DNA of 64,000 nucleotides, from contig OZ024742.1 of assembly GCA_964016885.1 (NCBI GenBank), positions 329,406,001 through 329,470,000 on the forward strand. Reading direction: 5' to 3'. Below the pieces are notes generated by a model. The model was not told the DNA's origin. It was given only the letters and a program-made list of their open reading frames with translations, and made no database searches. Shown here one piece after another: positions 1,581-52,195 of the stretch. The first letter of the stretch is position 1. The number at the start of each line of letters is the position of its first letter. This DNA is from Eledone cirrhosa. Taxonomy: Eukaryota. The position numbers and the translations under genes are program-made.

Positions 1581-1611
1581 AGATCAAGAGATGGTTAAAG
1601 GAGTTCCATAT

Positions 1612-1680
1612 ATTTTATTATGCGCATTTCAAAAACAAACATCATCATGCAATAATATTTGTGTTTTCATCAGATAAAAC
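1612..1680 (-). ncRNA. Minimal type I hammerhead ribozyme (inverted copy)
   Basis: Minus strand reads GTTTTAT-CTGATGA-...-GAAA-TGCGCA-TA-ATAAAAT, with a palindromic TGCGCA at stem III. Confidence 0.8.
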
Positions 1681-1880
1681 AGGAGGACATGATATGAAGG
1701 CTAAAAAACACTTGTGGATAGTGCAGTTTTAAATCAACATATGAAAAGTAGTTTTAGATTGATGTGTGATATTGGGAAAATATCAATCTAAAACTACATC
1801 AATCTAAAACTACTTTTCATATGTTGATTTAAAACTGCACTATCCACAAGTGTTTTTTAGCCTTCATATCATGTCCTGCT

Positions 1881-1949
1881 GTTTTATCTGATGAAAACAC
1901 AAATATTATTGCATGATGATGTTTGTTTTTGAAATGCACATAATAAAAT
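1881..1949 (+). ncRNA. Minimal type I hammerhead ribozyme
   Basis: GTTTTAT-CTGATGA-stem II(aaacacaaatattat..gatgtttgttttt)-GAAA-TGCACA-TA-ATAAAAT; stem I GTTTTAT/ATAAAAT. Confidence 0.75.
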
Positions 1950-2073
1950 ACATGGAACTCATTTAACCATCTTTTGATCTTATATATTATGTATACTCCT
2001 GTCCTACAAACTGTAGAGTGCTTCTTATCCGATATCTGCATTGCTTTATTGTACTACAATAAAACTCACCTCC

Positions 2074-2199: not shown

Positions 2200-3798
2200 T
2201 GGAGTTAAACACCCTCTTCGTATTATAGAAATGACAGTGAAGGTATAGCTCAATGTAATTAAACAGAGCCGAAGAATTATGAAAATAAACCAAAGAAGCC
2301 TTCAATACATCAAATGTCTTTTTAGGTGTGACTTTGGACTTGGTCACTAATAGTTTTAAACCCTTCCATAAGCCTAATGAAATACTCTCTTATGTTAGTC
2401 CCAATTCTAACCACCCTAAATCTATATAAGCTCTATAATTAATGGTGTATCTAATAGGATTTCCACACTCTCTAATAAGGACGTAGGAATATTTAATGCA
2501 CATGCAGAGTACTATAATAATGCCCTAGCTAATTCCGGTTACTCTGGTAAAATACATTATAATAATAGTAACCTTAGAAAGTCTCCGCTTACTTATAATA
2601 ATAACAACATAATATCCCATAATATGGCCATGAATGGGAGTAGAAAGCATAAGAATCGTAGAAATCACATAGGTGTATCTGAGTCATCCATAAGTTAAGC
2701 CATCTGACTCGTAATGGGGAATCTAATACTTCTCGGAATCAAGTCGAGCCCTCTGAGCGCCCACTCAGTTGTAATGCTTTTGCTAAATCTAATTCTAATA
2801 GAGTTGTTTCTACTGATCCTATTATTAGCCCTAATCCTTTTGATATGTTTCCAGATAGCAGCAGATATAATAATGGTAGACACAAAAAGAGACTTAATGG
2901 AGTTTCGGCTGATTCTAATAATGTGGTTTTAACTAGTCCTTGTAGTAACCCAAATCTTAATAAGGGGATATTAGATAACTGTAGAGTTGGTAAGGATAAA
3001 AATAGAAGGAGACTAAATACTTATTTTAACCCGCCATATAATCAGGAAGTATTAACTAACATCCCTAGGTCTTTCTGTTCTATCTTAGAGAAAAATTTCG
3101 CTCCTACTAATAAATACCATAGTATTTTTAATAAAAATGTAATTAAACTTTCATTCTCTACCACCCCTAATATTAGTTCTCATTTAGCTAGCACTAACAA
3201 AGCGAAAATTAGGGATGGATACTCCTCTCTACGTACCACTAGTCCGAATAGATCCATACATACCTTACCACCTGAGCAGACCTTATCTCACAGTAAACCT
3301 ATAAGTGATGCATCACTACTTCAGCCGATCAATAGCACCCGGAAGTGTAACTGTAGAGTGAGTGCTAATTGCCCTTTAAACGGTAACTGCCTCTCTAAGA
3401 ACATCGTTTATGCTTGTGTAGTTAAAACAAATTCCTCTAATAGTACATATATAGGCTCTACATCTAACACTTTTAAGACTAGGTTTAATTCTCATATCTC
3501 TAATTTTAAACATGTTAAGTTTAAGAATTCTACTTCTTTAGCACACCATATCTGGGATCTTAAGGGGACTAATATACCATATAGCCTTAATTGGCGAATA
3601 GTAGCACGCTCTAATAACCTTTCAACACATACTAAATTTTGTATTCTCTGTATCCTTGAGACCCACTCTATAATTTTCTCTAGGGAAACCTTACTTAATA
3701 GAAAGTCTGAGATATTCTCTTCTTGCCCCCACGCCATTTCAAATTCTTACTTTTATTATAAACCTAAAGGTTCTAGTAGTGTAAGTTGTATCCATTAG
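2200..3798 (+). mobile_element. 5'-truncated Penelope-like element (Naiad-like): RT thumb remnant plus GIY-YIG endonuclease
   Basis: ~2320-2470 reads FLGVTLDL..FKPFHKPNE.LSYV..NSNHP.SI..RISTLS (frameshifted). The downstream ORF carries the endonuclease. Confidence 0.9.
2845..3798 (+). CDS. PLE linker plus GIY-YIG endonuclease (317 aa remnant of the pol ORF)
   Basis: YFNPPY, KLSFSTTPNI, CNCxxxxxCPLNGNC, IVY...YIGST..FKTRFNSH, TSLAHHIWDLK, CILCILE, LLNRKSE..SCPH. Confidence 0.85.
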   Translation: MFPDSSRYNNGRHKKRLNGVSADSNNVVLTSPCSNPNLNKGILDNCRVGKDKNRRRLNTYFNPPYNQEVLTNIPRSFCSILEKNFAPTNKYHSIFNKNVIKLSFSTTPNISSHLASTNKAKIRDGYSSLRTTSPNRSIHTLPPEQTLSHSKPISDASLLQPINSTRKCNCRVSANCPLNGNCLSKNIVYACVVKTNSSNSTYIGSTSNTFKTRFNSHISNFKHVKFKNSTSLAHHIWDLKGTNIPYSLNWRIVARSNNLSTHTKFCILCILETHSIIFSRETLLNRKSEIFSSCPHAISNSYFYYKPKGSSSVSCIH

Positions 3799-5699: not shown

Positions 5700-8600
5700 T
5701 AGTTAAATCTTAGACAGGAACAAACACAGAGAGGCAGTATAAATATGAGTTTATTAGGTTCACGCTTGTGAGAGTGTGAGGGGTTGGTGTTTCGGGCATA
5801 ATCCCTTCATCAGGAGAAAAGTGGGTAGGAAGAGAGTTCGGAGGTTGCGTGGGGGAGTGGTGCAAAGACATTTAGAAAAAGTGTGTGAGGGGGGGGATGA
5901 GAAACGGAAGAAAAAACGATTTTCGAGATACAAATGAAAATAAAAATAAACATAAAAATAAACAAGTGGTGGAAAGTTGTGAGGCGTGTAGGGGTGGTGG
6001 CGGGTAGAGTTGGGAGAGGGAGACAGGGGGTCCGAGTGGGGAGGGCTGTAGGTGGTTTTTATGTATGTGTGTAGGTGTACGTGTGTGTGTGTGCGTGTGT
6101 ATGTCAATGTGAGAGTTGGGGAAAGAACGAGGTTCCATGTTCAGGAAAAAGGGGAACCGGTGTGGATGGAGAGGGGTCAGAGGGGTGGGGGAGGGGCGTG
6201 TGGATTCTGGAGTCTGAGTGTGTGTATATGTGGGTGTACGCACGTGTGTGTTTGTGTTTGTACGTGGTGTGGATGTAGGTGGCGTGGTTCGAAAAAATGT
6301 GATGTTTGTTCGTGGTTATGTTCCTAATCAAGTTCCGTGGAGTGTGCGATAGGATGTTGGATATTTCTCATGTTATGGAGTGGATAGCTGGAACGATGAC
6401 CGGTGGTGTGGAATCCATTAGTGCTGGTGGTCAGAGGTGGAGAAATGTGGGGTGCGCGCGCAACAGGAAATGGTCACAGGGTAAAGGCAGGGTGAAAATA
6501 TAGCAGTAGAGGAAGATGACAGGTGAAGAATGGTCTGTGTGTGGTGTGGACTGTGTGTCTGTGTGTGCAAGAAGTGCGGTGGACAGGGTAGAGGATGGGT
6601 AGGTGTGAAAGGTGGAGGGGGGAGGTGGTGATGTAGGGGATGGGGTGTATATTAGTGTAGGTGTTAGTGGGATGTGTGTGTGTAAAGAGGTGTTTGTGGG
6701 GCGGGGAGAGGGAGAGGGAGAGAAAAAGGTGTTGGGGACGGAGCATGGAGTGTAGTGTACTGGTGTGTATGTGGGCGTATTTGAATGCGTGTGTGGTAGA
6801 GGGGGTGTTAGTATTACTGGTGGTGGGGAAATGGTTGAATGCGTGTGTGTTAGTGGGGGTTAGTGGTGGTTGGGTGTATGGAGTGGGTCCTGTACATAGG
6901 TGTGGATTGGTGTTTGGGTGTGGTGGGTGGGTGCACGGATGTCGGGGAAGGGTGGGGATGTTAGTATTGTCAGTTAGGGGAGGACCGGGGGTTGGTGTGG
7001 TGGTGTTAGTATTATTAGTTTTGGGGTGGACACAGGGGTGGCGCGGTTTAATGTATGAGTGTGTTAGTGGTGTTAGTGTGGGATGTGTGGTGGGGAAAGG
7101 AAGGTTAACGGAATATGGGTGGGGAGTTCAGGCCGGGGGTGTGTGGGTCTGTAGGGTGAAGATGTTGTGTTGTTCGACCGTGAGGCGGGTGGCGGGTGTT
7201 CCATGGCATTGGAGTAGGCCACAGACTATGAGGTGGTGGGTGGAATGTCCAGGGGAGCCAAAGTGGCGGGTGATGGTTGAACTCCCGCCGAGACGAATAT
7301 CATGGAGGTGTGCAGTGAAACGCTCCGCCAGACGACGTCCTCTCTGTCCGACGTAGGTTGCGCTGCACTCCGTGCAGCGAAGTCCATATACTAGGTTGGA
7401 GGAGGTGCAGCGTAAAGCGTGCTGGACAGAGAGAGAGAGTGGCCGTTGAGATCTTGGAAGGTGGTGGTGTTGGTGATGTGGGGGCAGGTGTGGCAGCGAG
7501 GCTTGGAGCAGGGAAGGGAACAGGGGTTTGGGCAGAATAGCGTGGATTGGGGGGTAGGGAGCTGCAGACGAGGAGGGTGTGGATATTATGCGCGCGTTTG
7601 AAGGAGGGGAGGGTGGGGAGGGAATATGGGGGCGTGGAGGGGTCGGACTGGAGGCGTCTGAAGAGGTGGAGGATGGTGCGGTGGAGGGGTAGAGTGGTGG
7701 GTGTTAGGTGATGGGAAGGGGAGACGGTGGGTGGGTGTGCGGCGGTGTTTTGTGAGAGTGTAGCGGTGGATAGCACGGGCGTGAGTAAGGGCAGTGTGGA
7801 CGATGGAGGGGGGCGGGGTGTAACCTCTCCGGATGAAATGGCTGACTAAGAGAAGGGTCTGGGACTCAAATTCAGCATCTCGGCTGCAGAGGCGGCGGAT
7901 CCGAGGGAGTTGGGTGTAGGGAATGGAGTGTTTTGTGTGTGTGGGTGGGAGGAGGTGGACTCGAGGTACGAGTGGGAGGAGGGAGATGGGATTGAATAAG
8001 GTTGAGGAGACGAGGGAGCGGTTGGAGGGGTCGATGGCGAAGGAGATGTCTAGGAAGTGGATGTCGGCGCTGGAGATAGAGGTGGTGAAATGGAGGGAGG
8101 GGTGGAAGAAGCAGAACAGGAGAGAAACAGTCAAGCTGTTCTCTGGTGAGGGTCGTGGCTCCGATATAGTGGTCGATGTAACAACCGTACAGTTCGGGCG
8201 TGGGGCCGGTGTACTGGGCAAATATTTGAGACTCAACATGGCCAACGAAAAAGTTGGCATAATTTGGGTCCATTCTTGTGCCCATGGCTACCCCCGTGAT
8301 CTGTTGGTAAAACTCACCCGAGAAGGAGAAGCAGTTGAGAGTGAGGACCAGCTCGGCGAGGCGAAGGAGGGTCGGGTGGAGGGGATGGGGGAGGAGCGAA
8401 GGGCACGTAGGCCGTCGGCATGGGGGATGACAGTATAGAAAGACTTGATATCTAGGGTGAAGAGGAGGGAGTGTGGGCCGGGTCGGAAAGTGAGGGAGTC
8501 GAACAGACGAAGGGCGTGGTTGGTGTCGGAGATGTGAGAGGGGAGGGTGGGGACGAGGGGGGCGAGGATGAAGTCAAGAAAGACGGAGATGAGTTCGGTG

Positions 8601-8710
8601 GCGCAGTTGCAAGCGGAAACGATGGGGCGGCCGTGGTTGTCGGGTCTGTGGACTTTGGGGTGGAAGTAGATAGGTGGAGTGCGGGGGGGGGGGGTGCGGA
8701 CGATGAGGTG
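5700..8710 (-). mobile_element. GC-rich Neptune-like PLE, frameshifted: RT, GIY-YIG, long 3' UTR, terminal hammerhead
   Basis: PKVHRPDNHGRPIVS, LDIKSFYTVIP, AMGTRMDPNYAN, YIDH, HFLDI, SIPYTQ..RIRRLCS, NLVYGLRCTEC..TYVGQ..RRLAERF..H, PGLN (~7125). Both ends abut (TA)n. Confidence 0.9.
5781..5820 (-). ncRNA. Hammerhead core in the PLE 3' terminus
   Basis: Minus strand CTGATGA-A-GGGATTATGCCC-GAAAC; stems I and III are degenerate. Confidence 0.6.
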
Positions 8711-9038
8711 ATATATACATATATATATATATACATATGTATATATAATGCATCTAATTCTAAGCATATATAGTAGGCCTCCAGGACTAAACTCAGAAAA
8801 TAGAATATTAGATTTTACGAATGTCCTTCGAAAAGGCATTAAGCGCATAAAAATGGAAACATTTTTAATGCATAAATACTTGTCTTCGGTAACAGATCTA
8901 ATTATTTTCTACTGATTAGTTTTTTCATCTTGATCAGACAGCAGGAAATCGAATACGTCTTTTTAGCTTTCATTTCACCAATTCCTTTCTAATACTTCAA
9001 CATTTCCACCACAATCAAACGCATAAATGTATACACGC

Positions 9039-17456: not shown

Positions 17457-18039
17457 ACATATGTATATATATATATATAATATAAGTAACATAGTTCAAG
17501 GAAACAGCGAAGCAAAGGTACAAACATTCTTATTTATGCCATGCTTTATATGATAGGGGGGAAAGCAATACCCCCCCCCCTAGAACATGTGTACATGTAT
17601 AAAGAAAATGATATACATGTAACTGTTTAAGGTCCGTGACCTGAACAATCTGGTACGTTTAATTTGTGACTTAACAATATATGCAACGAATTTATCTGCC
17701 CTAGGTGTGGGCAAGATACTCACCAAGAAATAGAAAGAAAACCGAAGGAAGATGTAAAACTCAAATAATAACAATGATAATAATAACAATACAAATCATA
17801 ATAATAATAGTAATATTTGCTCTTTATCACATCCTAATAGCCATCCTTGTATTTTTCATATTTGCACATTGAAGAACTGTCCGCACATTCCATATACAAA
17901 TGTAGAAAAACATAAGAGAATAAAACAACTCCAAGCACGCGTGTGACGCGTGTATTACATGTTTTCACATAATCTCTGACAGATATCTAAGAATGCATTG
18001 TGCATTCGTTTCTTCATTCTATTTACTAATTACATCATT

Positions 18040-19890
18040 TAGCAATTCACAACGCTAGACTTGGCAGGCATCCATCTATGTCCACTATATTGTTTATCAG
18101 CGACCACGGAGCAGGTTTCAGGTGTGTGTGTTTGTGGACTGATAAAAAGAAGAGTGCGCAAATATATGTAGACACGATATATTTCTTTATATACACATAC
18201 CCACGCACACACCGACATATATATATATGGCAACTTAAGCATGATAAAGTTGGATATTCCATGGTTTGGAATATAGTCTCAAAAGGGATTCCTTTTAATT
18301 CCTCTTCTGAGACTTGTGACCTCTGCGCGCAGGAGATATTATTTATATTAAAATCTAAAAATTCCTTTAATTTACGAACCAATTTATTCAGCTGTTGCAG
18401 ACATAGATTGAACTCAACATTTAAATATAAATATAAATTTAAAATGTAGTATAAAATGTAGTATATTTACTTAAGGTATTTGACTATTTGTGATACTTGG
18501 CGATAAATCTTTCGATTCCTTAAATTTTTTTAAAAACCTTTCCGCATGAATATATAATTAATGAGATTAAATAAACTACCCTAAAATTGGCGTTGTTCCC
18601 AATCTTTTGAATACATTTTTAAGCTGGATAAACTTCTATAATAAATATAAGAGCATTTGTAGAATAAGTTTTGAATGATTTCTGATAAATAAGGCTTGGT
18701 GAGCAATTTTGGTCTTGTTTGCTTTTGACTCTGATTCTATGACCGATATGCGTGGCATACTATGTTCTCTTGCGTCCCTAGATACTCTGTGGAGTGACGA
18801 AGATATTCTTGGCGTTTTTAATTTTAATATTGATATCTGTTGTCTACTCTATGCTTGATCGATGATTATTTTAGATGTTGATGTATATCTTATATGTTTT
18901 GTGTCTATATATATGTATATATGTATGTAAATGTATGTAGGGTGGAATCTTTTCTAACGCATTGAAGTTTTTCTTTTCTGACACATTGATGTTTTTCATG
19001 AAATATAAGAATCAGTGCAGCGTATCACCTAGGTTCACATGTGCGTCTATATTTATCAACTTTAATTTGAGATAACCTTCTCTTTTCTCATTTTTCACGA
19101 GAATGCATATATACTTGTTTGAAGTTTTGTCTCAGATTTTGCTTATAGACCTAAGAATTTTTAAACTGAGCATGTGGTCATTTTTTTTTTACACATTATA
19201 GATATGTGTCTCATTCATGAATACTGATATTTACATTATAATGCCTAATTCATAAAAATTGATAATTCAAATGGATGAGACATAATATATTTTTAATATA
19301 TTTTAAACATATCATCTTTCTTTCTTTTTCTTCTATACACTAATCTAACTGTATCCCTTCCCTTAACCTCTCCAAGATATACGATGATCATCTGTCAAAA
19401 AGCAGCCTACTATGTTTTTTTGTTTTTTTCACCATCAATGTATTTCTCTCTATCCTTGTCTCTCTATCTCGCTCCGTTGTTTTTCTTTACATACATCTCT
19501 TTCTCTTTCTCTTTACATACATCTCTTCATCTTCTTCTTTTTTATTTACATACATCTCTTCATCTTCTTCTTCTCATCTTCGTTTTCTTTCTATATAACT
19601 ATCATAACAGTTTCACTACCAAATCAACTTTTTAAAAGGAAGTTGCATTATTGCAAGGTATGTCACTAATTATTTATAAAACAGCTTATGTATTGTATTT
19701 TGTCTGAGGAAGGCATAACATATTTTTAATATGATATCCCAGAAATATATATAACGAAATAAATATGGTTTTATAAATATAGTTTCCATTTGTTTAATAT
19801 CGTAAACCTACTCCAGAAACTGTTGAGTGCTTTTATATCAGTTATAAAATATTTACTCGTTGTAACCCAACAATCTTAAATAAAACTTTT
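18040..19890 (+). mobile_element. Naiad-like PLE 3' remnant: endonuclease C-terminus, ~1.3 kb 3' UTR, hammerhead
   Basis: YIWQLK...WNIV...CDLCAQE...N.RTNLFSCCRH is homologous to the C-terminus of 2845-3798. Ends in (TA)n. Continuity across the UTR is inferred. Confidence 0.7.
19697..19760 (+). ncRNA. Minimal type I hammerhead ribozyme
   Basis: ATTTTGT-CTGAGGA-imperfect stem II-GAAA-TATATA-TA-ACGAAAT. Confidence 0.7.
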
Positions 19891-23025: not shown

Positions 23026-23757
23026 AATATATTTTTATTTACACACATACGCTTGTGCTTACTTCTAAAAGCACTTGGCGCTGTCACCTTTACCCCGTCC
23101 ATTGTCGCATACACACACACACACGAGTATATTCACACCTAGGTTCATATGGTTGTGTTGTACGTTGAAATATACCCTCTTACATATGATACAGACCAGC
23201 AGAAAAAGCATCCAAACCTATATATTTACCTTTACAGCTCTGTACACACATACACACACAAACACGCACACACACACACACAGGCCCTGATATACACATA
23301 TTCGCTCAATGCTTCGTACGTACAAATACAGACACATATCTTCTGAGCTTCTTACGGACGTATAACAACAAACACACATACACGTATCGCACGCGCGCAC
23401 GTATAGATCTATATACAAAACAATTTTTTCTTTCAGTTAGATGCACTTCATCACTATATTTTCAAAAAGTATATCATACACAAAATGCCTGCATCAACAA
23501 TTTCCTAAAAGCTGGCAACATGAACGGACCTGTTATTTTTTTCTAAAAATCTTTTTCCGCCATGCCCGTCTCCTCAATATTTCGATTTCTTCTTTAATTT
23601 CACATACTATTTTGTGATAAAGGAATACCATCCGAAACGTTAAGGACCGTTCCCTACTATATCAAGCGTAAAACTATTAATATATTTCTTTATTGAGCTG
23701 TGTCATTTGGTATGTTTTCATTATGGCTTTTGCCATATATATATATACATATATATA

Positions 23758-26700
23758 TAAACAATTAAGTTAAAAATGTACATCCACATATGTATACTGA
23801 AATACTAGTATGCATATGAATACACACACGTATACATATGTAGATGTACCGAGTTTTTCACTGGTCACTTTACTGTGAGTGTCCAGCTATTCTGTATGTA
23901 AACACACAGACAAGCCGGTTTTTCGAGTCATACTGGTTTTTGAGGAAACACCTTTCCTCTATTCTCCAGAAAGCCAGACAAGGAATATTGAACTAGTTTC
24001 GATGTTGTTACATCTCATCAGCAATATTTACCTATCTTCCGGCCTTTCTAGAGAATCGTAAAAGCACATATCGTTATATGCTTTTTCTATGAAAATTAGT
24101 AGTGGGCAGACTAATTTGCATAGAGCGTGAGTACGTACCGGTTCAACGGAGACGATAAAAACAAATAACGAAACGAAATTAAATTTCGTTTCGTTTGTAA
24201 CTCACTTTTGTATGACTGACGCTTAAACAATTAAGTTAAAAATGTACATCCACATATGTATACTGAAATACTAGTATGCATATGAATACACACACGTATA
24301 CATATGTAGATGTACCGAGTTTTTCACTGGTCACTTTACTGTGAGTGTCCAGCTATTCTGTATGTAAACACACAGACAGACCGGTTTTTCGAGTCATACT
24401 GGTTTTTGAGGAAACACCTTTCCTCTATTCTCCACAAAGCCAGACAAGGAATATTGAACTAGTTTCGATGTTGTTACATCTCATCAGCAATATTTACCTA
24501 TCTTCCGGCCTTTCTAGAGAATCGTAAAAGCACATATCGTTATATGCTTTTTCTATGAAAATTAGTAGTGGGCAGACTAATTTGCATAGAGCGTGAGTAC
24601 GTACCGGTTCAACGGAGACGATAAAAACAAATAACGAAACGAAATTAAATTTCGTTTCGTTTGTAACTCACTTTTGTATGACTGACGCTTAAACAATTAA
24701 GTTAAAAATGTACATCCACATATGTATACTGAAATACTAGTATGAATATGAATACACACACGTATACATATGTAGATATACCGAGTTTTTCACTGGTCAC
24801 TTTACTGTGAGTGTCCAGCTATTCTGTATGTAAACACACAGACAAACCGGTTTTTAGAGTCATACTGGTTTTTGAGGAAACACCTTTCCTCTATTCTCCA
24901 GAAAGCCAGACAAGGAATATTGAACTAGTTTCGATGTTGTTACATCTCATCAGCAATATATACCTATCTTCCGGCCTTTCTAGAGAATCGTAAAAGCACA
25001 TATCGTTATATGCTTTTTCTATGAAAATTAGTAGTGGGCAGACTAATTTGCATAGAGCGTGAGTACGTACCGGTTCAACGGAGACGATAAAAACAAATAA
25101 CGAAACGAAATTAAATTTCGTTTCGTTTGTAACTCACTTTTGTATGACTGACGCTTAAACAATTAAGTTAAAAATGTACATCCACATATGTATACTGAAA
25201 TACTAGTATGCATATGAATACACACACGTATACATATGTAGATGTACCGAGTTTTTCACTGGTCACTTTACTGTGAGTGTCCAGCTATTCTGTATGTAAA
25301 CACACAGACAAGCCGGTTTTTCGAGTCATACTGGTTTTTGAGGAAACACCTTTCCTCTATTCTTCAGAAAGCCAGACAAGGAATATTGAACTAGTTTCGA
25401 TGTTGTTACATCTCATCAGCAATATTTACCTATCTTCCGGCCTTTCTAGAGAATCGTAAAAGCACATATCGTTATATGCTTTTTCTATGAAAATTAGTAG
25501 TGGGCAGACTAATTTGCATAGAGCGTGAGTACGTACCGGTTCAACGGAGACGATGAAAACAAATAACGAAACGAAATTAAATTTCGTTTCGTTTGTAACT
25601 CACTTTTGTATGACTGACGCTTAAACAATTAAGTTAAAAATGTACATCCACATATGTATACTGAAATACTAGTATGCATATGAATACACACACGTATACA
25701 TATGTAGATGTACCGAGTTTTTCACTGGTCACTTTACTGTGAGTGTCCAGCTATTCTGTATGTAAACACACAGACAGACCGGTTTTTCGAGTCATACTGG
25801 TTTTTGAGGAAACACCTTTTCTCTATTCTCCACAAAGCCAGACAAGGAATATTGAACTAGTTTCGATGTTGTTACATCTCATCAGCAATATTTACCTATC
25901 TTCCGGCCTTTCTAGAGAATCGTAAAAGCACATATCGTTATATGCTTTTTCTATGAAAATTAGTAGTGGGCAGACTAATTTGCATAGAGCGTGAGTACGT
26001 ACCGGTTCAACGGAGACGATAAAAACAAATAACGAAACGAAATTAAATTTCGTTTCGTTTGTAACTCACTTTTGTATGACTGACGCTTAAACAATTAAGT
26101 TAAAAATGTACATCCACATATGTATACTCAAATACTAGTATGAATATGAATACACACACGTATACATATGTAGATGTACCGAGTTTTTCACTGGTCACTT
26201 TACTGTGAGTGTCCAGCTATTCTGTATGTAAACACACAGACAAACCGGTTTTTAGAGTCATACTGGTTTTTGAGGAAACACCTTTCCTCTATTCTCCAGA
26301 AAGCCAGACAAGGAATATTGAACTAGTTTCGATGTTGTTACATCTCATCAGCAATATTTACCTATCTTCCGGCCTTTCTAGAGAATCGTAAAAGCACATA
26401 TCGTTATATGCTTTTTCTATGAAAATTAGTAGTGGGCAGACTAATTTGCATAGAGCGTGAGTACGTACCGGTTCAACGGAGACGATAAAAACAAATAACG
26501 AAACGAAATTAAATTTCGTTTCGTTTGTAACTCACTTTTGTATGACTGACGCTTAAACAATTAAGTTAAAAATGTACATCCACATATGTATACTGAAATA
26601 CTAGTATGCATATGAATACACACACGTATACATATGTAGATGTACCGAGTTTTTCACTGGTCACTTTACTGTGTGTGTCCAGCTATTCTGTATGTAAACA

Positions 26701-28411
26701 CACAGACAAACAGGTTTTTAGAGTCATACTGGTTTTTGAGGAAACACCTTTCCTCTATTCTCCAGAAAGCCAGACAAGGAATATTGAACTAGTTTCGATG
26801 TTGTTACATCTCATCAGCAATATTTACCAATCTTCCGGCCTTTCTAGAGAATCGTAAAAGCACATATCGTTATATGCTTTTTCTATGAAAATTAGTAGTG
26901 GGCAGACTAATTTGCATAGAGCGTGAGTACGTACCGGTTCAACGGAGACGATAAAAACAAATAACGAAACGAAATTAAATTTCGTTTCGTTTGTAACTCA
27001 CTTTTGTATGACTGACGCTTAAACAATTAAGTTAAAAATGTACATCCACATATGTATACTGAAATACTAGTATGCATATGAATACACACACGTATACATA
27101 TGTAGATGTACCGAGTTTTTCACTGGTCACTTTACTGTGAGTGTCCAGCTATTCTGTATGTAAACACACAGACAAACCGGTTTTTAGAGTCATACTGGTT
27201 TTTGAGGAAACACCTTTCCTCTATTCTGCAGAAAGCCAGACAAGGAATATTGAACTAGTTTCGATGTTGTTACATCTCATCAGCAATATTTACCTATCTT
27301 CCGGCCTTTCTAGAGAATCGTAAAAGCACATATCGTTATATGCTTTATCGATGAAAATTAGTAGTGGGCAGACTAATTTGCATAGAGCGTGAGTACGTAC
27401 CGGTTCAACGGAGACGATAAAAACAAATAACGAAACGAAATTAAATTTCGTTTCGTTTGTAACTCACTTTTGTATGACTGACGCTTAAACAATTAAGTTA
27501 AAAATGTACATCCACATATGTATACTGAAATACTAGTATGCATATGAATACACACACGTATACATATGTAGATGTACCGAGTTTTTCACTGGTCACTTTA
27601 CTGTGTGTGTCCAGCTATTCTGTATGTAAACACACAGACAAACCGGTTTTTAGAGTCATACTGGTTTTTGAGGAAACACCTTTCCTCTATTTTCCAGAAA
27701 GCCAGACAAGGAATATTGAACTAGTTTCGATGTTGTTACATCTCATCAGCAATATTTACCAATCTTCCGGCCTTTCTAGAGAATCGTAAAAGCACATATC
27801 GTTATATGCTTTTTCTATGAAAATTAGTAGTGGGCAGACTAATTTGCATAGAGCGTGAGTACGTACCGGTTCAACGGAGACGATAAAAACAAATAACGAA
27901 ACGAAATTAAATTTCGTTTCGTTTGTAACTCACTTTTGTATGACTGACGCTTAAACAATTAAGTTAAAAATGTACATCCACATATGTATACTGAAATACT
28001 AGTATGCATATGAATACACACACGTATACATATGTAGATGTACCGAGTTTTTCACTGGTCACTTTACTGTGAGTGTCCAGCTATTCTGTATGTAAACACA
28101 CAGACAAGCCGGTTTTTAGAGTCATACTGGTTTTTGAGGAAACACCTTTCCTCTATTCTCCAGAAAGCCAGACAAGGAATATTGAACTAGTTTCGATGTT
28201 GTTACATCTCATCAGCAATATTTACCTATCTTCCGGCCTTTCTAGAGAATCGTAAAAGCACATATCGTTATATGCTTTTTCTATGAAAATTAGTAGTGGG
28301 CAGACTAATTTGCATAGAGCGTGAGTACGTACCGGTTCAACGGAGACGATAAAAACAAATAACGAAACGAAATTAAATTTCGTTTCGTTTGTAACTCACT
28401 TTTGTATGACT
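23758..28411 (-). repeat. Tandem array of ten 466-bp units, each with a hammerhead ribozyme (non-LTR retrozyme-like)
   Basis: The period is exactly 466 (also visible in the ORF track: 23879, 24345, 24811...). Units differ by only a few substitutions. (TA)n on the left. Confidence 0.95.
23984..24028 (-). ncRNA. Minimal type I hammerhead, unit 1 (repeats at +466: 24450, 24916, 25382, 25848, 26314, 26780, 27246, 27712, 28178)
   Basis: Minus strand AATATTG-CTGATGA-GATGT-AACA-ACATC-GAAA-CTAG-TT^CAATATT: full catalytic core, perfect stems I and II, palindromic ACTAGT at stem III. Confidence 0.9.
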
Positions 28412-29162
28412 TGTCTGGCTTTCTGGAGAATAGAGGAAAGGTGTTTCCTCAAAAACCAGTATGACTCGAAAAACCGGTTTGTCTGTGTGTTTACATACAG
28501 AATAGCTGGACACTCACAGTAAAGTGACCAGTGAAAAACTCGGTAATCTACATATGTATACGTGTGTGTATTCATATGCATACTAGTATTTCAGTATACA
28601 TATGTTGATGTACATTTTTAACTTAATTGTTTAAGCGTCAGTCATACAAAAGTGAGTTACAAACGAAACGAAATTTAATTTCGTTTCGTTATTTGTTTTT
28701 ATCGTCTCCGTTGAACCGGTACGTACTCACGCTCTATGCAAATTAGTCTGCCCACTACTAATTTTCATAGAAAAAGCATATAACTATATGTGCTTTTACG
28801 ATTCTCTAGAAAGGCCGGAAGATAGGTAAATATTGCTGATGAGATGTAACAACATCGAAACTAGTTCAATATTGCTTGTCTGGCTTTCTGGAGAATAGAG
28901 GAAAGGTGTTTCCTCAAAAACCAGTATGACTCTAAAAACCGGTTTGTCTGTGTGTTTACATACAGAATAGCTGGACACTCACAGTAAAGTGACCAGTGAA
29001 AAACTCGGTACATCTACATATGTATACGTGTGTGTATTCATATGCATACTAGTATTTCAGTATACATATGTGGATGTTCATTTTTAACTTAATTGTTTAA
29101 GCGTCAGTCATACAAAAGTGAGTTACAAACGAAACGAAATTTAATTTCGTTTCGTTATTTGT

Positions 29163-29165
<3 letters not shown>
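28410..29165 (+). repeat. Inverted ~1.6 units of the same 466-bp repeat
   Basis: Reverse complement of the unit, starting at cttgtctggctttctgg and ending in (TA)n. Confidence 0.95.
28829..28873 (+). ncRNA. Minimal type I hammerhead in the inverted block
   Basis: aatattg ctgatga gatgt aaca acatc gaaa ctag tt caatatt, read directly on +. Confidence 0.9.
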
Positions 29166-29233
<68 letters not shown>

Positions 29234-29239
29234 TATATT

Positions 29240-29314
<75 letters not shown>

Positions 29315-39303: not shown

Positions 39304-39364
39304 CTACTCCTATATATATTTCGATGATAGCCATTGAATGGCTATGGCCTCATCAGGCAGTTAG
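39304..39364 (-). ncRNA. Minimal hammerhead in a ~165-bp insert within (TA)n
   Basis: Minus strand CTAACTGC-CTGATGA-ggccATAGCCA-ttcaa-TGGCTATcatc-GAAA-TATATA-TA-GGAGTAG. Confidence 0.7.
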
Positions 39365-45119: not shown

Positions 45120-46900
45120 TAATCAACAAAGGCGACGGCCTACTACCAACGCCTCCAACCAACATCTTCCTGTACATAAGCATAGAAGGAAGAAGAGTGC
45201 ACCTGAGCATAAAGTGAAAGGGGCACATAACGGGCTACAACGCATTAACATGCAAAAGAACGGTCACCTTGATGGAATCACCCGTAGCAAACGTACAAGG
45301 ACACGTAATCGCTACCGTAAAATGCTATGGTTCCATCCCCCAAAACTCTCGGAGTGTGGCCACCAAATATACCCCGGATATCCTTCGAAGCCTTAGAGAA
45401 GAACTTCCCACCCAAACATAGGTATAGAAAAAGTCCTTAATAGGAACAATATAAAAATATGCTTCTCTACTACTCCTAACCTAGCAGACATCATAGGAAC
45501 AACTAACCACAGTAAGATCACCAAGACACAGCACCTTGGCACAGACGCACCTACACCTGACAATACCTATATCGGCCTTAACGACTCCCTAGCAGCATCC
45601 AATAGTGCTGGTAACAGCCTCTACAGACGACACCAGCATAACCGCGCCATGACTGGGGAACATGCAGGACATGACGTGCGGAATAATAATGGTACCACCT
45701 CGCACACAGTGGGTTATAATGGTGCTAACGACAGGTGCGGGAGCGTAGATAACAACGTAGATAGCAATAATTGTTTCTACTTTAGGCACAAGGCCAGCAA
45801 TTACCCAGTCTATTACTGGTACTTTATTTTATCGAACCCGTAAGGATGAAAGGCAAAGTAAACGTCGGCGGGATTTGAACTCAGACTGTAAAGGGACGTA
45901 ACTATGCTGGAAAGCATGGTGTCCGACTCTCTATCGATACTGCCAATCCACCGAGCAATAGTGATAGTCTTAACGTGGGAATTAGAAGGAACCGCAACAG
46001 AAATTGCAACTGCCGCGACAGGAGACGCTGCCCCTTTAGCGGATACTGTTTGACTGATAGGGTTATATATAGGTGCACTGTAACTAGCCACAATAGCGTT
46101 AAACATTATATTGGAGCTACCTCTGGCCCGTTCAAAATTAGATTTCGAGCACATCTCCACTCTTTCACAAATAAGAAATTAAGACACTTCACTCGCGGAC
46201 TACATCACATCTTTAAAATACTTAAACATCAGCTTCTCCATGCACTGGGATATTGTCGGCAGGGCTGTACCGTACAACTTCAAGAGGAAGTGTGATCTTT
46301 GCCTCATGGAGCTCTACGACATCATAACTGCACCCCGCGAGCTCATCAACAGCAGAGCTTTAAATGACGATAAGCTGTACACATCGCTAAAAAATATTCT
46401 TCTTCAGATGTGATAAGGATGAGGAGTGAAACCGTACACCGGGTCTCCCTGCAACAAGCTTTAATACCCCGGCGGACAGGCGCTGAAAAACACATCCGGA
46501 AACTAACCATGCATCCCAGACCCAGCTTCAAATGACCCAGGCTGGCAGGTGCAGCGAACCAACATCTCAAAATAAGCGTTGATTACCTGACCCTGTGCGT
46601 ATCGACAATGGTAAGGTTGTAACCACATCTTGTGACAGATAAACAATTTGTCCAGGAAAGACTGCCCTAACACCGGCCAGAGTTACCTCCCTTGACCTAC
46701 TGCAAAATCAAAACACGCTTTTTTGCGAAGAATGAACTCTGACGTGAACTTACCCCCAAAACACTTTCCGAGCCATGTAAGGAACACTTTCAGTTATTTA
46801 TACCCTTGAGAAGCCCATCGGGGCGAAACGTACGTAGGTGCTTTTTTAAATAAACATATATTAACGGTCTGTTCTCCGATTTCCTACTTTTCCACGTATA
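45120..46900 (+). mobile_element. Decayed Naiad-like PLE (linker, GIY-YIG, 3' UTR), interrupted by a SINE
   Basis: LWFHPP, KICFSTTPNL, CNCRDRRRCPFSGYC..VIY..YIGATSGPFKIRF..H, CDLCLME. Terminal atacc-CTTGAGAA-GCCC-ATCG-GGGC-GAAA-CGTACG-TA-ggtg (46800-46840). Confidence 0.8.
45770..45953 (-). mobile_element. SINE family A nested in the PLE
   Basis: Reverse complement of family A; AGCAATA duplicated at 45763-45769 and 45954-45960. Confidence 0.88.
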
Positions 46901-47000: not shown

Positions 47001-47299
47001 ATAATTTAGTAAATAGCATATATTTTCTCTAGCTCTGGTAGTTGGCAGGTGCCCAGTGAGCTGTACTGATGATGGGTGATGTCCAGAAATATTAGTGTCT
47101 GCAGTTGTTTACATGCCAACACAAGAGCAATAATGAAGGGTTCATTCTACTGACATGGCCTTAAAAATGAGGCGGGTTTGCATAATTCCAAACAAATCGA
47201 ATGTTATCATTACTATTCGAAACACTCAAATTACATTTATATATATATATATATTAGTTTTGCGAGGTTTTTGATATGAAATCGTGTGTCGAAAAAAAT

Positions 47300-49469
47300 A
47301 TCGTTATATTTGGGGAAGGTCATATTGTTGTAATAATATTGCCAGAATTAATATCAGAACACACTCACTGTTCACTTTTGTATCTTTTATATCAGTTGAT
47401 TTAGTCGGTACTCAATGTTTACCATTGACTGACCAACGGTCAAAAATACAGATATAATATAGACACAAACACATATATATATATAGTCTAACAAAGTTCT
47501 TTCGTTGCACATCTGCCACATCGTCAGTGGGGCTATTATGTTTCCTCCTGTTGTATTGTATGTCTACGCCATCTTTATTTAATATGTTTATTTATTTATT
47601 TATTTATTTTATCTTCTTCTCTGCACATGCGTTTGCGTGTGTGTATAGTGTTTGATGTTTGTTCACGTTTGGGTGACTGTGTTTTGGTTATTGTATATTA
47701 TCTTAGATTACTAATGTATGTTTATATTTGTTTGTTGTTATTGTGCTCGTGTATATATGTATTTATTTATTTATATTCTCTTAGGTCAGTATTGTTTGTT
47801 TGGGTGTTGTTATTCCATTCATTTTTTTCTGTTTAGCTTTGACCTTCTAAGTTCTATTTCACTGGCCTCCCATGATAAGGTGGATTGGGTGAACCAAAGC
47901 CATACAGACACCCCACAACAATGATCAGATAACAAAAATGGTCGCACATGCAATAGGGCTAGTATTAAAACTACCTAAAGAGCCACATATTCAAATTCAA
48001 CGAGAAGATCTACATCCAAAATGAGGGAGCAGCCATTGGCGTCAGCACGGCTGATGACGTTGCTAACATGTTTATGGTATGGTGGGAAAGGAGACTCAAA
48101 GATCTTCTTGATGAGAGCTCCATATACCTCATCATGTACTCTCGTTACGTAGACGACATTAATATAGTAATAAGGACATCCCCACAAGAGAGTACTAACA
48201 AGTATGATTTAGAATGTAGCACGATGGAAAGCATCCAGCAGATAGCTAATTCCATACACCAGAGTATAACTGTAACTAACGAATACCCTTCCAAACACCC
48301 TAACAATAGACTACCTGTATTAGACACGGAACTCTGGATTAACACTATAGACAAAAGAGCCCAAACTCTGCACTCACACTACGCTAAACCCATGGCCTCC
48401 AAATACCTGATACTCAAAAACTCAGCAATGTCCAGTCGTGCTAAGTTTAATATTCTGATCGTAGATTTGGTACGAGTGATGAAGAACGTGTCCCGCATGT
48501 GCGACCCAACAGAAATGGAAAGACACATCCGACACTTCATCAATCGCATGCAGTTCTCTGGCTACAACCAACGAGGCAGAATCAGAGTATACGAAGGAGC
48601 CACGGAGAAGTATAAGACCCTCATAGAACTGCATATGAAAGGAATTTGTCCATTATACAGGAGAAAATCATGGAATAGTTTAGATTGGACTAGACATAAG
48701 ATAGGGAAAGCCACCTCATTGTACGACAACCAGAGATACCAGAGTGTCATGTTCGTGGACGCTATCCCTGGAGGGAAATTAGCTAACCAGTGTAGAAAGG
48801 ACCCGAGAAAGACCCACTTAAAGATTAAGGTGGTAGAAAAGCCAGGAACCGCCATAAAATTCCTGATCAGCAAGACATACCCTTTTAAGAAGACCCACTG
48901 TACTAATAGGAATGGTATTATATGTAGAGTAAACCCCCGTATACACTGTACAACTAGAAACTTAGTCTATAGTATAAGATGTACACTGATCTAAGAGAAG
49001 TATAAATAAATAAATAAATAAATGTATACACAAGCACAATAAACACAAATAAACACACACTAGTAAACTAAGATAGAATACAATATCCAATACACAGTCA
49101 CCCAAACGCGAACACACATAAAACACTATACACACACGCAAACGCAGGCGCATATAAGAAGACAAAAATAAATAAATAAATAAACAGATTAAATAAAGAT
49201 GGCGCAGATATACAATACAACAGGAGGAACACAATGCCATCACTGACGATGTTGCAGATGTGCAACGAAAGAATGTGTAGACTATATATATGTTTTTGTG
49301 TCTATATTATATCTGTATTTTTGACCGTTGGTCAGTCAATGGTAAACATTGAGTACTGAATAAATCAACTGATACAAAAGATACAGAAGCGAAAACCAAC
49401 CAAACAGTGAGTGTGTTCTGTTATTAACTCTGGCAATATTATTACAACAATATGACCCTCCCCAAGTAT

Positions 49470-49478
<9 letters not shown>
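47300..49478 (+). mobile_element. PLE with inverted pLTRs flanking a truncated RT ORF
   Basis: 47300-47790 is the diverged reverse complement of 48985-49478. Both copies carry CTGACGA-T-GT(T/G)GCA-GATG-TGCAAC-GAAA (49243-49270 on +, ~47500-47527 on -). Confidence 0.85.
48068..48994 (+). CDS. PLE reverse transcriptase C-terminal half and linker (truncated; homology extends upstream to ~47860)
   Basis: Upstream FKFNEKIYIQNEGAAIG. In the ORF: SRYVDDI, LPVLDTELW, HYAKPMAS, MQFSGY, KVVEKPG, C..C..C NLVYSIRC, then truncated before YIG. Confidence 0.85.
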   Translation: MFMVWWERRLKDLLDESSIYLIMYSRYVDDINIVIRTSPQESTNKYDLECSTMESIQQIANSIHQSITVTNEYPSKHPNNRLPVLDTELWINTIDKRAQTLHSHYAKPMASKYLILKNSAMSSRAKFNILIVDLVRVMKNVSRMCDPTEMERHIRHFINRMQFSGYNQRGRIRVYEGATEKYKTLIELHMKGICPLYRRKSWNSLDWTRHKIGKATSLYDNQRYQSVMFVDAIPGGKLANQCRKDPRKTHLKIKVVEKPGTAIKFLISKTYPFKKTHCTNRNGIICRVNPRIHCTTRNLVYSIRCTLI

Positions 49479-49559
<81 letters not shown>

Positions 49560-49560
<1 letters not shown>

Positions 49561-52195
49561 AAGAAGTTTATGGAATGGAAATGCGGGTATAAAGAATTTA
49601 TTAGGTAACAATTGTTTCTATAGTGTGTGGGGTACCTATACCTCGCTATTTGTATAATATAAAAAATATTATCATAAATCGTAGGTACACTGTAAGAGAA
49701 CACACCATGTCGTCAGACCTTTATGGTAGAATGGTACGAGAATATTTTACACACTAGATATGTGAGAAAGTAGGAGGTAGGAAGGGAAGAGGAAGAGGGA
49801 AGCGAGTAAGGGGGAGGTAGTCTTAAGATTCAAGACTGTCAGAGTAGTAGAGATTGTATAGAAGAAAATGTTTTGGCAGCAGTTAGCTAAATGAGGCGTG
49901 TTAGGGTTGGCGGGGGAAGTAAATTCTTCTAGTGGTGTTGTTTGGACAAAATTTAGTTAAAGGGGTCAATGTAGTACATAATTATAGATAAGTTATTGGG
50001 GCTATTATAGTAGCAGGATATTTCTAAAGGGGTCTAAAAAACAGTGTTTAGTGCTATTATTATAAAAAGCCATATCGTGTGTATAACCATATAAACATAT
50101 GAAATAAAAATAATAAAAATTTGCAAATGGTGGTGTAAAAAGATAACATTACATGCATTTAAAAAAAGAAAAAAATCGTGTTTAAACGATGGTTACAGTA
50201 AAGTGAACGTTCAATTTTGCTGTTCAAAAGTTTGTTTTCCGACGTTAAAATGCAGTATATCTCCATATTGCATAATTTACAAAATCGGTGATTTTGCTTA
50301 TATACTGGCGCAACTGCAATAATTTGCAATCAAGGGAGAATGCTTGATCGTTCTTCCGAAGCTACCAGGCTTTATCGGCGAGGGTTGTTACGGAGCGCAT
50401 TTTCTCATGCTTGATCGAAGATAGATGTTGGTATAGGCAAGCTTTGAAAGATGTTGCGGTACATCCGACGTAAAACCATTTGTTGGTTCCGGAATTTATT
50501 GTACATCGGTAGACAATATTGCGTGTTAGGCATCGGTTATTCAATGGGCACAAACCTGGTTTAGTGCAGTTACCATTATTTTTATGTTTTGCAGTAGTAT
50601 CCTGGATAGTTTGGTGGGGTTGTAGCTGCGTGTTAGTGCGTTGTATGTCGCTATGTTGGTGCGCTGTGTCATTAGGGATGTACTTATTTAGTATTGTTGA
50701 GTTGACATTTTTAATTAGTTGTTCTATGTTAGGTGCAGTGGAGCATGACAGTCTAATGGTGCGCGAGTTTAAGATTTTATAGTATTTATGTGAAGTTGTA
50801 AAGTGTTTATTGATCAGTGTATAGAATTGTGAGATAATCTTAGTGCTAATAGAAATATTGTACACGGGGTTATACCATATGTACTCTCTACGTCTAACTA
50901 TTTGCTGGTTTACACCTATTATTATGCCTATTAATATGTCTGTGTGGTGCAATACTAGTTCGACTTAGATGTGATTTATTCATAGTACCTATGTGGTTAT
51001 CTTCTAGATATTCTATTTTCTCGCAGTAACCAGCTTTTCTAAGTGCGTCGTTATAATACTCAGCATGCTCGTTTGAAGGTCTGCAAATTAGACGATAGTC
51101 GGGAGATCCTTATGGATATATTTTTAGGGATAGATTTAATAATGGAATGGGGATGGTTCGATCTTACATTAACGTACTTGAGATTTTCATTAAGTTTGTG
51201 AAATGGCTTTATATTACCGTTATTAAGGTTGAAGGTGACATCCAATAAATTGACCACTTTAAGATTGTGTTCGAAGGTAATACTAAGTCCTAGTTCTAAG
51301 AAAAGTTTCCTAATGTTTTTACGTCGCCTTTCTAGGTTTTGTTTGTTCATATTTTTGACTAATAGGAGTGCATCATCACGGTAGATTCCGCCGTGGAGGT
51401 CAATAAATTCGCTCTAGACTCTGTGAGCTATATAGATTCCAACCAAATCCGTAACTTCCGCCGAATCATTAGAACCCATCGTAATGTCAAATTCCGAGGG
51501 TCTATTTCTGCGGACCCAATAACTATTTTCAAAATGGACTACTGTGCGTCTAGCTTCAAGTATAATATTAATATCCTCGTTTGTGAGGTCCGAGTTAGCC
51601 TTAGCGAATGAGAGGGCCTTATGCAGAGTTTCAGGTGAAATAGAGGAATAGTATTCATCTATATCGAATTGAATAAAAGAAGATTTGTTTTTGTCACTGA
51701 TGTTATTGAACCAACTTATTGCCTGTTGAGTATTACCCCATAATTTAATATCTACCTTAGCCTTAACTTGAGGGATAATACGATCTAATATGTACTTACT
51801 GATTCTACCTATATCAGATTTTGAAGGACATATCAATCTAATTTTAGGGTTAGTATCGAAGTTAGCCTTATGGTCCTTCAAATTAAAAGTCGGTGTAGCG
51901 GGAGATGGGGGTTCCGTTCTGTCGTCGATTTTCAGTTTCTTAACAATATCACATGCTGCGTTGTTAATGTTGGTTAGTGTAGTTGCGTTGGTTTTTTTGT
52001 ACTTCGTATGTAATTCCTTACGTATAAAATTATTATATGTTTCTACATCTAGGGTATATAGATTCGATGTTTTGTCTGCCTTTACAATAATTCCTTTGGT
52101 ATTTCTTAAGTTGTCGAGAAGTCGGATTTTAAAGCATATTTTATTATACGTTGAGCAATCTCCGACGTCGGTTGACTCCATCCAATGCGACTACC
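49560..52195 (-). mobile_element. Naiad-like PLE with RT and GIY-YIG, frameshifted
   Basis: VKADKT, LKDHK.NF..NPKIRLICP, FDIDEYY, FDITMGSNDSAEV.DLVG, GGIYRDDAL, NLLDVTF, SNHP, WYNP, NC...CPLNNRC, IVY..YVG, CKLC.ME, CNH (~50185). Confidence 0.92.

What the first reader, a model, noticed from the sequence alone, without database searches (positions are those of the whole stretch)
23758..29165. 466-bp satellite with an intact hammerhead ribozyme in every complete unit: a retrozyme-like, probably circRNA-producing array
Seen: ten tandem 466-bp units plus about 1.6 inverted units lie between two (TA)n tracts. Each unit carries AATATTG-CUGAUGA-GAUGU-AACA-ACAUC-GAAA-CUAG-UU^CAAUAUU. The core and stem II are invariant in all 11 copies, while substitutions occur elsewhere. 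Stem III is reduced to the palindrome ACUAGU. Established: minimal type I hammerheads with a palindromic stem III cleave as dimers in tandem transcripts (newt satellite 2, metazoan non-LTR retrozymes). They release monomers that circularise and are thought to be mobilised by PLEs. Inference: a minus-strand transcript would be cut every 466 nt (first site between 23991 and 23990) into non-coding monomers or circles. 466 nt is at or above the upper size range I recall for animal retrozymes. I know of no description of this family but cannot search.
Basis: partly seen in the sequence, partly recalled or inferred. Interest (0 to 1): 0.93.

Follow-up and report, generated by a model that had tools for sequence, protein, structure and literature searches.

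The report
Two-armed hammerhead retrozyme, Penelope-type insertion
This repeat is one of about two thousand insertions of a small non-coding jumping element carrying a predicted self-cutting RNA; the copies sit as back-to-back arrays with two fixed start points, which suggests that a Penelope-type enzyme copies one likely circular RNA round and round from both sides of a DNA break.

Summary
The array and its 11 hammerhead motifs are real. It is not a local satellite but one insertion of a dispersed family: 1,908 exact (TA)n junctions and 921 exact ribozyme copies genome-wide. Most insertions examined are two opposed arms joined at their 5' ends. One arm starts at unit base 302, the other at 226-234 (45 of 49, none at 302), the one-sided 'tail' of Penelope-like elements. 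Stems covary and the core is unchanged in sister families only 60% identical. In one young insertion a single-base change found nowhere else in the assembly fills all 12 covering units of both arms, which favours repeated copying of one monomer, likely a circle. The window's own array is older and grew partly by local block duplication. Cleavage, circles and the partner enzyme are not shown; 466 nt is within the published range. A spliced RNA run holds the family at low level, from another subfamily. Verdict: new member of the known non-LTR retrozyme class. Earlier notes of this scan reported the same family and architecture on other DNA.

The parts
23736..23757 (.). Left (TA)n flank, short and interrupted; likely remnant of the target
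   Evidence: sequence
23758..28411 (-). Arm 1: ten tandem units, ribozyme sense on the minus strand. Outer end at unit base 233 (short start site), inner end at base 240; bases numbered from the predicted cut site
23758..26553 (-). Likely three-unit block duplication (units 1-3 repeated as 4-6) made after insertion
   Evidence: variant pattern; a variant pair in units 2 and 5 has only these 2 matches genome-wide
23984..24028 (-). Type I hammerhead, first of ten at 466-bp steps (last at 28178-28222): 7-bp stem I, core, 5-bp stem II, one-pair stem III inside a 6-nt palindrome, GUU triplet; predicted cut 23991/23990
28410..28411 (.). Inner junction of the two arms, 2-nt microhomology
28410..29168 (+). 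Arm 2: 1.63 units, inner end at base 9, outer end at base 302 (long start site)
28829..28873 (+). Eleventh hammerhead; predicted cut 28866/28867
29100..29168 (+). 'Tail' of about 70 nt (unit bases 234-302), present at this outer end only; holds a 13-pair hairpin (29128-29156) followed by a U-rich run
29167..29308 (.). Right (TA)n flank

Best explanation
This is one insertion of a dispersed, non-coding 466-bp retrozyme family whose copies sit in (TA)n tracts as two opposed arms with fixed outer ends, likely written in by a Penelope-like reverse transcriptase copying a likely circular RNA monomer from both sides of a DNA break. Proposed cycle: (1, inferred) tandem copies are transcribed; (2, predicted) pairs of hammerheads join through the palindromic stem III and cut at GUU or GUC, releasing 466-nt monomers that a host ligase closes; (3, inferred) the Penelope endonuclease nicks both strands of a (TA)n tract and each DNA end primes reverse transcription at an internal site, base 302 on one side and 226-234 on the other; (4, inferred) each enzyme runs through the ligated cut site for a variable number of laps; (5, inferred) the two cDNAs are joined at their far ends, often by short microhomology; (6, shown for this locus by a private variant) the array later mutates and grows by block duplication in DNA.
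For: Dispersal: 921 exact 45-nt ribozyme matches and 1,908 exact (TA)n-plus-base-302 junctions, reversed-pattern controls 0. Ends: of 88 loci picked only on that junction, 5 were dropped as mis-chained or duplicate; 56 of the other 83 are two-armed; the far end was visible in 49 and lay at 226-234 in 45, at 302 in none, elsewhere in 4. A DNA run of the same species shows (TA)n loose ends at both sites (24155, 24224). Purified Penelope-like protein cuts both strands at AT-rich DNA and starts reverse transcription at two adjacent internal sites that define the tail (PMC11167929). RT plus GIY-YIG elements in this genome (938-aa frame) also end on (TA)n at two sites about 67 nt apart. Junction overlap of 2 nt or more in 19 of the 37 junctions without a gap, null 18%. 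One template unit: among 12 insertions of one young subfamily, the one on contig C22 has a private change in all 12 covering units of both arms and that pattern has exactly these 12 matches genome-wide. 117 of 147 arms run through a cut site. Ribozyme: core 11 of 11 and stem III 6 of 6 identical in sister units that are 60-62% identical overall; 6 of 16 pairs change on both sides; one stem II pair is A-U in 44 and U-A in 35 insertion-level counts, mismatched in 1. Monomer folds with z = -9.6.
Against: No cleavage, circle or enzyme was tested. No partner: none of 50 GIY-YIG loci shares sequence with the unit beyond separate retrozyme copies. Within the family the core changes as often as the median site (1.4% against 1.3%; mean 5.5%) and 11 of 245 units have a core change. 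Inner ends do not pile up at the cut site (6 of 133 in bases 1-12, null about 3, P = 0.055). A variant pair that looked private to one insertion proved to be a subfamily mark (117 matches), so homogeneity alone does not prove a circle; a donor for the C22 variant could be missing from the assembly. One locus has two short-type ends (L262). 19 of 56 junctions have gaps or extra bases, and my extension rule inflates overlap against an exact-match null. The window's array is heterogeneous (mean 5.25 differences between units against a median of 1.4 within 24 other insertions), so its length does not count laps. Hammerhead cleavage was not needed for Penelope insertion in vitro.
Confidence: 0.68

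Rival explanations
1. Same element and same Penelope enzyme, but the template is an uncut linear multimer read from a homogeneous donor array; the hammerhead is slow or idle and circles play no part.
For: Most arms cross cut sites; young subfamilies share identical units across loci; stem III cannot close in a monomer; 8 of 9 frog dimers did not cut; unprocessed RNA was the main substrate for a purified Penelope-like protein; an RNA contig bridges the cut site.
Against: The C22 variant fills both arms with no donor in the assembly; long arms of sister insertions do not repeat the scattered variants of the longest array of their subfamily that I saw; core and pairing are kept across families 40% apart.
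Confidence: 0.25
2. An ordinary minisatellite or satellite: short insertions expanded only by unequal exchange, with the hammerhead as a passenger.
For: Block duplication in the window and higher-order periods in 30- and 70-unit arrays show DNA-level growth.
Against: Young insertions have many identical units in both inverted arms between fixed ends; at least 1,908 dispersed insertions. Explains ageing of arrays, not their birth.
Confidence: 0.05
3. A DNA rolling-circle or MITE-like element with no RNA step.
For: Tandem units and strong hairpins; TA targets.
Against: Both outer ends are 3' ends in ribozyme sense, the inner ends are variable and the two ends differ by a tail; conserved ribozyme.
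Confidence: 0.02

Closest known systems
Animal non-LTR retrozymes (coral, mussel, axolotl Rtz331 with HHR_Amex1, newt satellite 2; PMC7229834; preprint 10.64898/2026.07.22.740005)
   Same: Non-coding tandem unit, low GC, one type I hammerhead per unit, one-pair helix III with palindromic tetraloop, highly paired monomer, monomers to large multimers, Penelope elements in the same genome.
   Different: In the parts read, those papers give no two-armed inverted insertion, fixed start sites, tail or (TA)n target; cleavage and circles are shown there, not here. GUU triplet in this copy. No homologous autonomous end found here, whereas 24 of 57 frog families matched known elements.
Endonuclease-bearing Penelope-like elements (PMC11167929; 10.1101/2021.04.23.441226; PMC3846280)
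   Same: Partial tandems plus an inverted 5'-truncated copy, tail at one end only, AT-rich or microsatellite target, hammerhead upstream of the start sites.
   Different: No reading frame (longest ATG frame 19 aa sense, 50 aa antisense); tail about 70 nt against 30-40 bp in those papers; both arms can be long multimers; full stem II rather than a minimal hammerhead.
Non-autonomous Chlamys elements such as MRC1 (10.1101/2021.04.23.441226, passage)
   Same: [quoted passage not shown]
   Different: That clade is described as lacking hammerheads and matches autonomous families at the 3' end; no such match found here.

Membership tests
Non-LTR retrozyme | Type I hammerhead in each tandem unit, at least two in a row | tested here: met
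   11 motifs; Rfam HH9 E 2e-7 though under cut-off; covariation
Non-LTR retrozyme | Short non-coding unit of low GC, no LTR | tested here: met
   466 bp, GC 0.36, longest ATG frame 19 aa sense; PBS and PPT were not searched for
Non-LTR retrozyme | Dispersed mobile copies, monomer to multimer | tested here: met
Non-LTR retrozyme | Highly self-paired monomer leaving stems I and II formed | tested here: met
   z = -9.6; stem I pair probabilities 0.63-0.94, stem II 0.91-1.0 in a dimer; prediction only
Non-LTR retrozyme | Self-cleavage, as dimer | not testable with these tools
   double-hammerhead fold -16.0 kcal/mol against -14.4 for two misfolded monomers: feasible, not shown
Non-LTR retrozyme | Abundant linear and circular monomer RNA | tested here: inconclusive
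   run X6 is spliced RNA of this species and holds unit contigs from another subfamily at low depth; contigs cannot show ends or circles
Non-LTR retrozyme | Target site duplication when present | tested here: inconclusive
   (TA)n flanks hide any duplication
Penelope-like element, non-autonomous | Tandem plus inverted 5'-truncated copy | tested here: met
   56 of 83 loci
Penelope-like element, non-autonomous | Tail at one end only (two start sites) | tested here: met
   45 of 49 far ends at 226-234 against 302; one exception, L262
Penelope-like element, non-autonomous | Sequence shared with the end of an autonomous element | tested here: inconclusive
   none among 50 loci taken from the best 150 of 10,596 GIY-YIG candidates
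Penelope-like element, autonomous | RT and GIY-YIG reading frame | tested here: not met
   no frame in the unit
Minimal hammerhead of Penelope ends | Reduced stem II | tested here: not met
   5-bp stem II with loop; definition recalled, and PMC7229834 separates minimal from canonical motifs

The most novel reading that the evidence does not exclude
A Penelope protein dimer loads on one ribozyme-made RNA circle and runs two rolling-circle reverse transcriptions at once, 70 nt apart, one from each end of a cut (TA)n tract. Insertions such as the one on C22 are then a direct genomic record of circular-RNA retrotransposition in animals, a route proposed in print but not shown in the papers read.
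Probability: 0.45. Interest if true: 0.78.

Novelty: new member of a known kind. Interest (0 to 1): 0.5.

Why it matters
How animal retrozymes are copied into genomes has been a hypothesis: circles as templates, Penelope enzymes as helpers. This family names the two start sites, the target and the junction type, and one insertion carries the mark of a single template unit copied many times in both directions. With a purified Penelope-like protein already working in vitro (PMC11167929), circle against linear template becomes a direct experiment. The related families are also a sizeable repeat class here (23,373 and 1,564 pattern matches). The window's own copy is an aged, ordinary member.

Tried and rejected
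1) 'First-lap' change at unit base 77: it differed within 12 of 26 insertions and several junctions ended at 77-80. In 88 independent loci no C was seen there. It was ascertainment: my query unit carries that C. Rejected. 2) Variants 'private' to the C10 insertion were a subfamily mark; only the C22 variant passed a genome-wide check. The 49 near-private fixed variants are private only within 122 sampled insertions. 3) RNA-editing scars (lead from earlier notes): A>G is 14 of 49 fixed variants against 31 of 348 singletons (P = 0.0003), with adjacent A>G pairs in L188 and L209, but strand asymmetry is not significant (14 A>G, 10 T>C, P = 0.42). Suggestive only. 4) Pile-up of inner ends at the cut site: not significant. 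5) look-up of sequencing runs: no RNA holder listed. X4 and X5, labelled as other organisms, hold the unit and ordinary intron repeats at a similarly small share of the X1 depth and no single-copy sequence, so I take them as traces of this or a close species' DNA, not as evidence of spread or expression. 6) In X6 the unit's depth relative to the DNA run is roughly 50-100 times lower than that of intron repeats; different likeness settings, unknown library and contig depth make this weak. 7) Partner search by GIY-YIG loci and by hammerheads with the same palindrome but another stem II gave only sister retrozymes; one odd match was isolated and had no reading frame nearby. 8) Ribosomal S7e search found nothing; an accession recalled from memory was not in the library. 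9) One search had one misplaced row and was replaced. 10) The bacterial promoter scan says nothing on an animal promoter. Host group: earlier notes say cephalopod; not tested here.
Full report
Numbering. Unit bases are counted in ribozyme sense from the predicted cut site (base 1 = first base after the cut).

Observation. The window holds ten 466-bp units at 23758-28411 and an inverted 1.63-unit arm at 28410-29168, between (TA)n tracts. Rfam finds nothing at gathering score and Hammerhead_HH9 at 36.5 bits, E 2e-7, in the permissive mode. The identity of the core in all 11 copies is real but weak evidence: only 21 of 466 sites vary in the array and P = 0.22 that all miss a 32-nt stretch. The rest of the window shows decayed transposon frames and simple repeats, and I saw no host gene among 120 frames of 90 aa or more.

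Is it a ribozyme? Sister families in the same genome (23,373 matches to one pattern; 1,564 to another) align along the whole unit at 60-62% identity but keep 11 of 11 core bases and the 6-nt stem III palindrome. On 7 chosen sequences 6 of 16 pairs change on both sides and no shuffle of 500 reaches the covariation score; related rows inflate this, and the stem II closing pair is unpaired in the 4 sister rows. Within the family one stem II pair is A-U in 44 and U-A in 35 insertion-level counts, mismatched in 1, and the base before the cut is U, C or A, all allowed (GUU is listed as a cleavable triplet in PMC3138052, passages). Decay does hit the core at background rate: 11 of 245 units have a core change. 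Stem III has one pair around a palindromic tetraloop and cannot close alone; a double hammerhead is modestly favoured in energy. This is the axolotl HHR_Amex1 design, which cuts poorly as monomer and well as dimer (PMC7229834 section 15). Activity here is predicted only.

It is a dispersed element. The exact 45-nt motif occurs 921 times and the (TA)n-base-302 junction 1,908 times. In a first set of 35 insertions, biased by my query, all 24 with two arms and both ends visible had one end at 296-303 and one at 228-234 (hand count). In an independent set of 88 loci chosen on the 302 junction (the first such places on contig C1, less those already used) I dropped 5 as mis-chained or duplicate; 56 of 83 are two-armed; of 49 visible far ends 45 lie at 226-234, none at 302 and 4 elsewhere. 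One locus found by the other junction has two short ends (L262). Sister families end at the homologous sites. A DNA run of the same species shows (TA)n loose ends at both sites. Inner junctions are scattered; 37 of 56 have no gap and 19 of these overlap by 2 nt or more, against 18% by chance (the extension rule inflates overlap).

Reading of the ends. Tandem copies with an inverted 5'-truncated copy and a tail at one end only are the signature of endonuclease-bearing Penelope-like elements (10.1101/2021.04.23.441226, passages; PMC3846280, passages). A purified lizard Penelope-like protein nicks and extends both strands at AT-rich DNA and starts at two internal sites whose spacing is the tail; hammerhead cleavage was not needed and occurred only with protein (PMC11167929, parts 1-2 of 4). 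This genome has 10,596 GIY-YIG candidates, including long RT plus GIY-YIG frames; one family ends on (TA)n at two sites about 67 nt apart. None of 50 loci examined shares sequence with the unit's ends, so the helper is inferred, not identified.

Circle or linear multimer? 117 of 147 arms cross a cut site and inner ends do not gather there, so the template was continuous: a ligated circle or an uncut multimer. Young insertions have up to 17 plus 13 near-identical units across both arms. My first 'private' variants were a subfamily mark (117 matches). Among 12 insertions of that subfamily, however, the one on C22 has a change in all 12 covering units of both arms, and that pattern occurs nowhere else in the assembly. 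The simplest reading is one monomer copied repeatedly from both ends; a donor missing from the assembly remains possible. It is one case.

This copy. Its units differ by 5.25 bases on average, against a median of 1.4 within 24 other multi-unit insertions. Units 1-3 resemble 4-6 and a variant pair of units 2 and 5 has only those 2 matches genome-wide. The array therefore likely aged and grew by a three-unit duplication; larger arrays show the same higher-order periods. Its ten units should not be read as ten laps.

Expression. Run X6 gives a contig that joins five exons of a single-copy gene across four GT-AG introns, with no mismatch in the four pieces listed, so it is RNA of this species; X1 is DNA. 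X6 holds 42 contigs on the stretch laid (two units and some flank), the strongest from the U-A stem II subfamily, one bridging the cut site with 41 and 121 bases on either side. This shows presence of family RNA, not of this locus, and nothing on ends or circles.

Literature. Non-LTR retrozymes, their circles and the proposal of Penelope-driven copying of circles are in PMC7229834 (passages and sections 14, 15, 17). The 2026 preprint (parts 1-3 of 5) gives family lengths of 51-972 bp, links frog families to Penelope ends, sampled no mollusc and found cleavage in 1 of 9 dimers. Six searches (listings only beyond the papers named) showed no description of this family or of two-armed retrozyme insertions; subscription papers, supplements, Dfam and Repbase were not covered.

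Earlier scan notes. A sequence look-up found nothing; word and place look-ups found this family and architecture reported on other pieces of this genome and in others. My reading was noted before. These notes are unchecked and are not counted as support.

Verdict. A new member of the non-LTR retrozyme class that works like a non-autonomous Penelope-like element. Shown: anatomy, dispersal, fixed ends, covariation, one insertion filled by a private variant, local duplication in this copy. Inferred: cleavage, circle, helper. Interest 0.5.

Noticed in passing
window 1593-1960 (cores at 1673 minus and 1888 plus); also L040, L046, L086, L097: Another two-armed hammerhead element with a long stem II and a different stem III palindrome; frequent in the loci fetched.
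   Followed up: no
window 47150-49560: Penelope-like element with a 341-aa RT-like frame between inverted terminal repeats that carry hammerhead-like cores (47527 minus, 49243 plus), (TA)n at both ends; the two ends differ in length.
   Followed up: partly
window 2420-3798, 7100-8900, 18030-18450, 45400-46300, 50362-52190: Decayed RT or GIY-YIG frames of several Penelope-like families.
   Followed up: no
window 5790-5813 and 39319-39356 (minus): Further isolated hammerhead-like cores.
   Followed up: no
L081, L082, L086, L089, L090, L092, L093, L097, L099, L100 (3' ends): Autonomous-type Penelope families whose terminal hammerhead-like motif has a changed core (U and A in place of C3 and G8 in several) and shares one stem III palindrome; tail about 67 nt in the L081 family.
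   Followed up: partly
L045:2792-3643, L101-L150: Sister retrozyme families, 420-540 bp units with an internal (TA)n-like stretch, over 23,000 pattern matches, same two ends.
   Followed up: partly
L188, L209 (unit bases 340, 341, 357), L187: Clustered A>G changes fixed in all units of an insertion, possibly A-to-I editing of the template.
   Followed up: partly
L262 (G000:C1:121677800-121679660): Insertion with two short-type ends and an internal rearrangement, the exception to the two-site rule.
   Followed up: partly
L154: Single-arm insertion whose two flanks begin as short inverted copies of each other beyond the (TA)n.
   Followed up: no
L201 and L202: The same insertion appears twice 17.7 kb apart, a likely segmental duplication or assembly repeat.
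   Followed up: no
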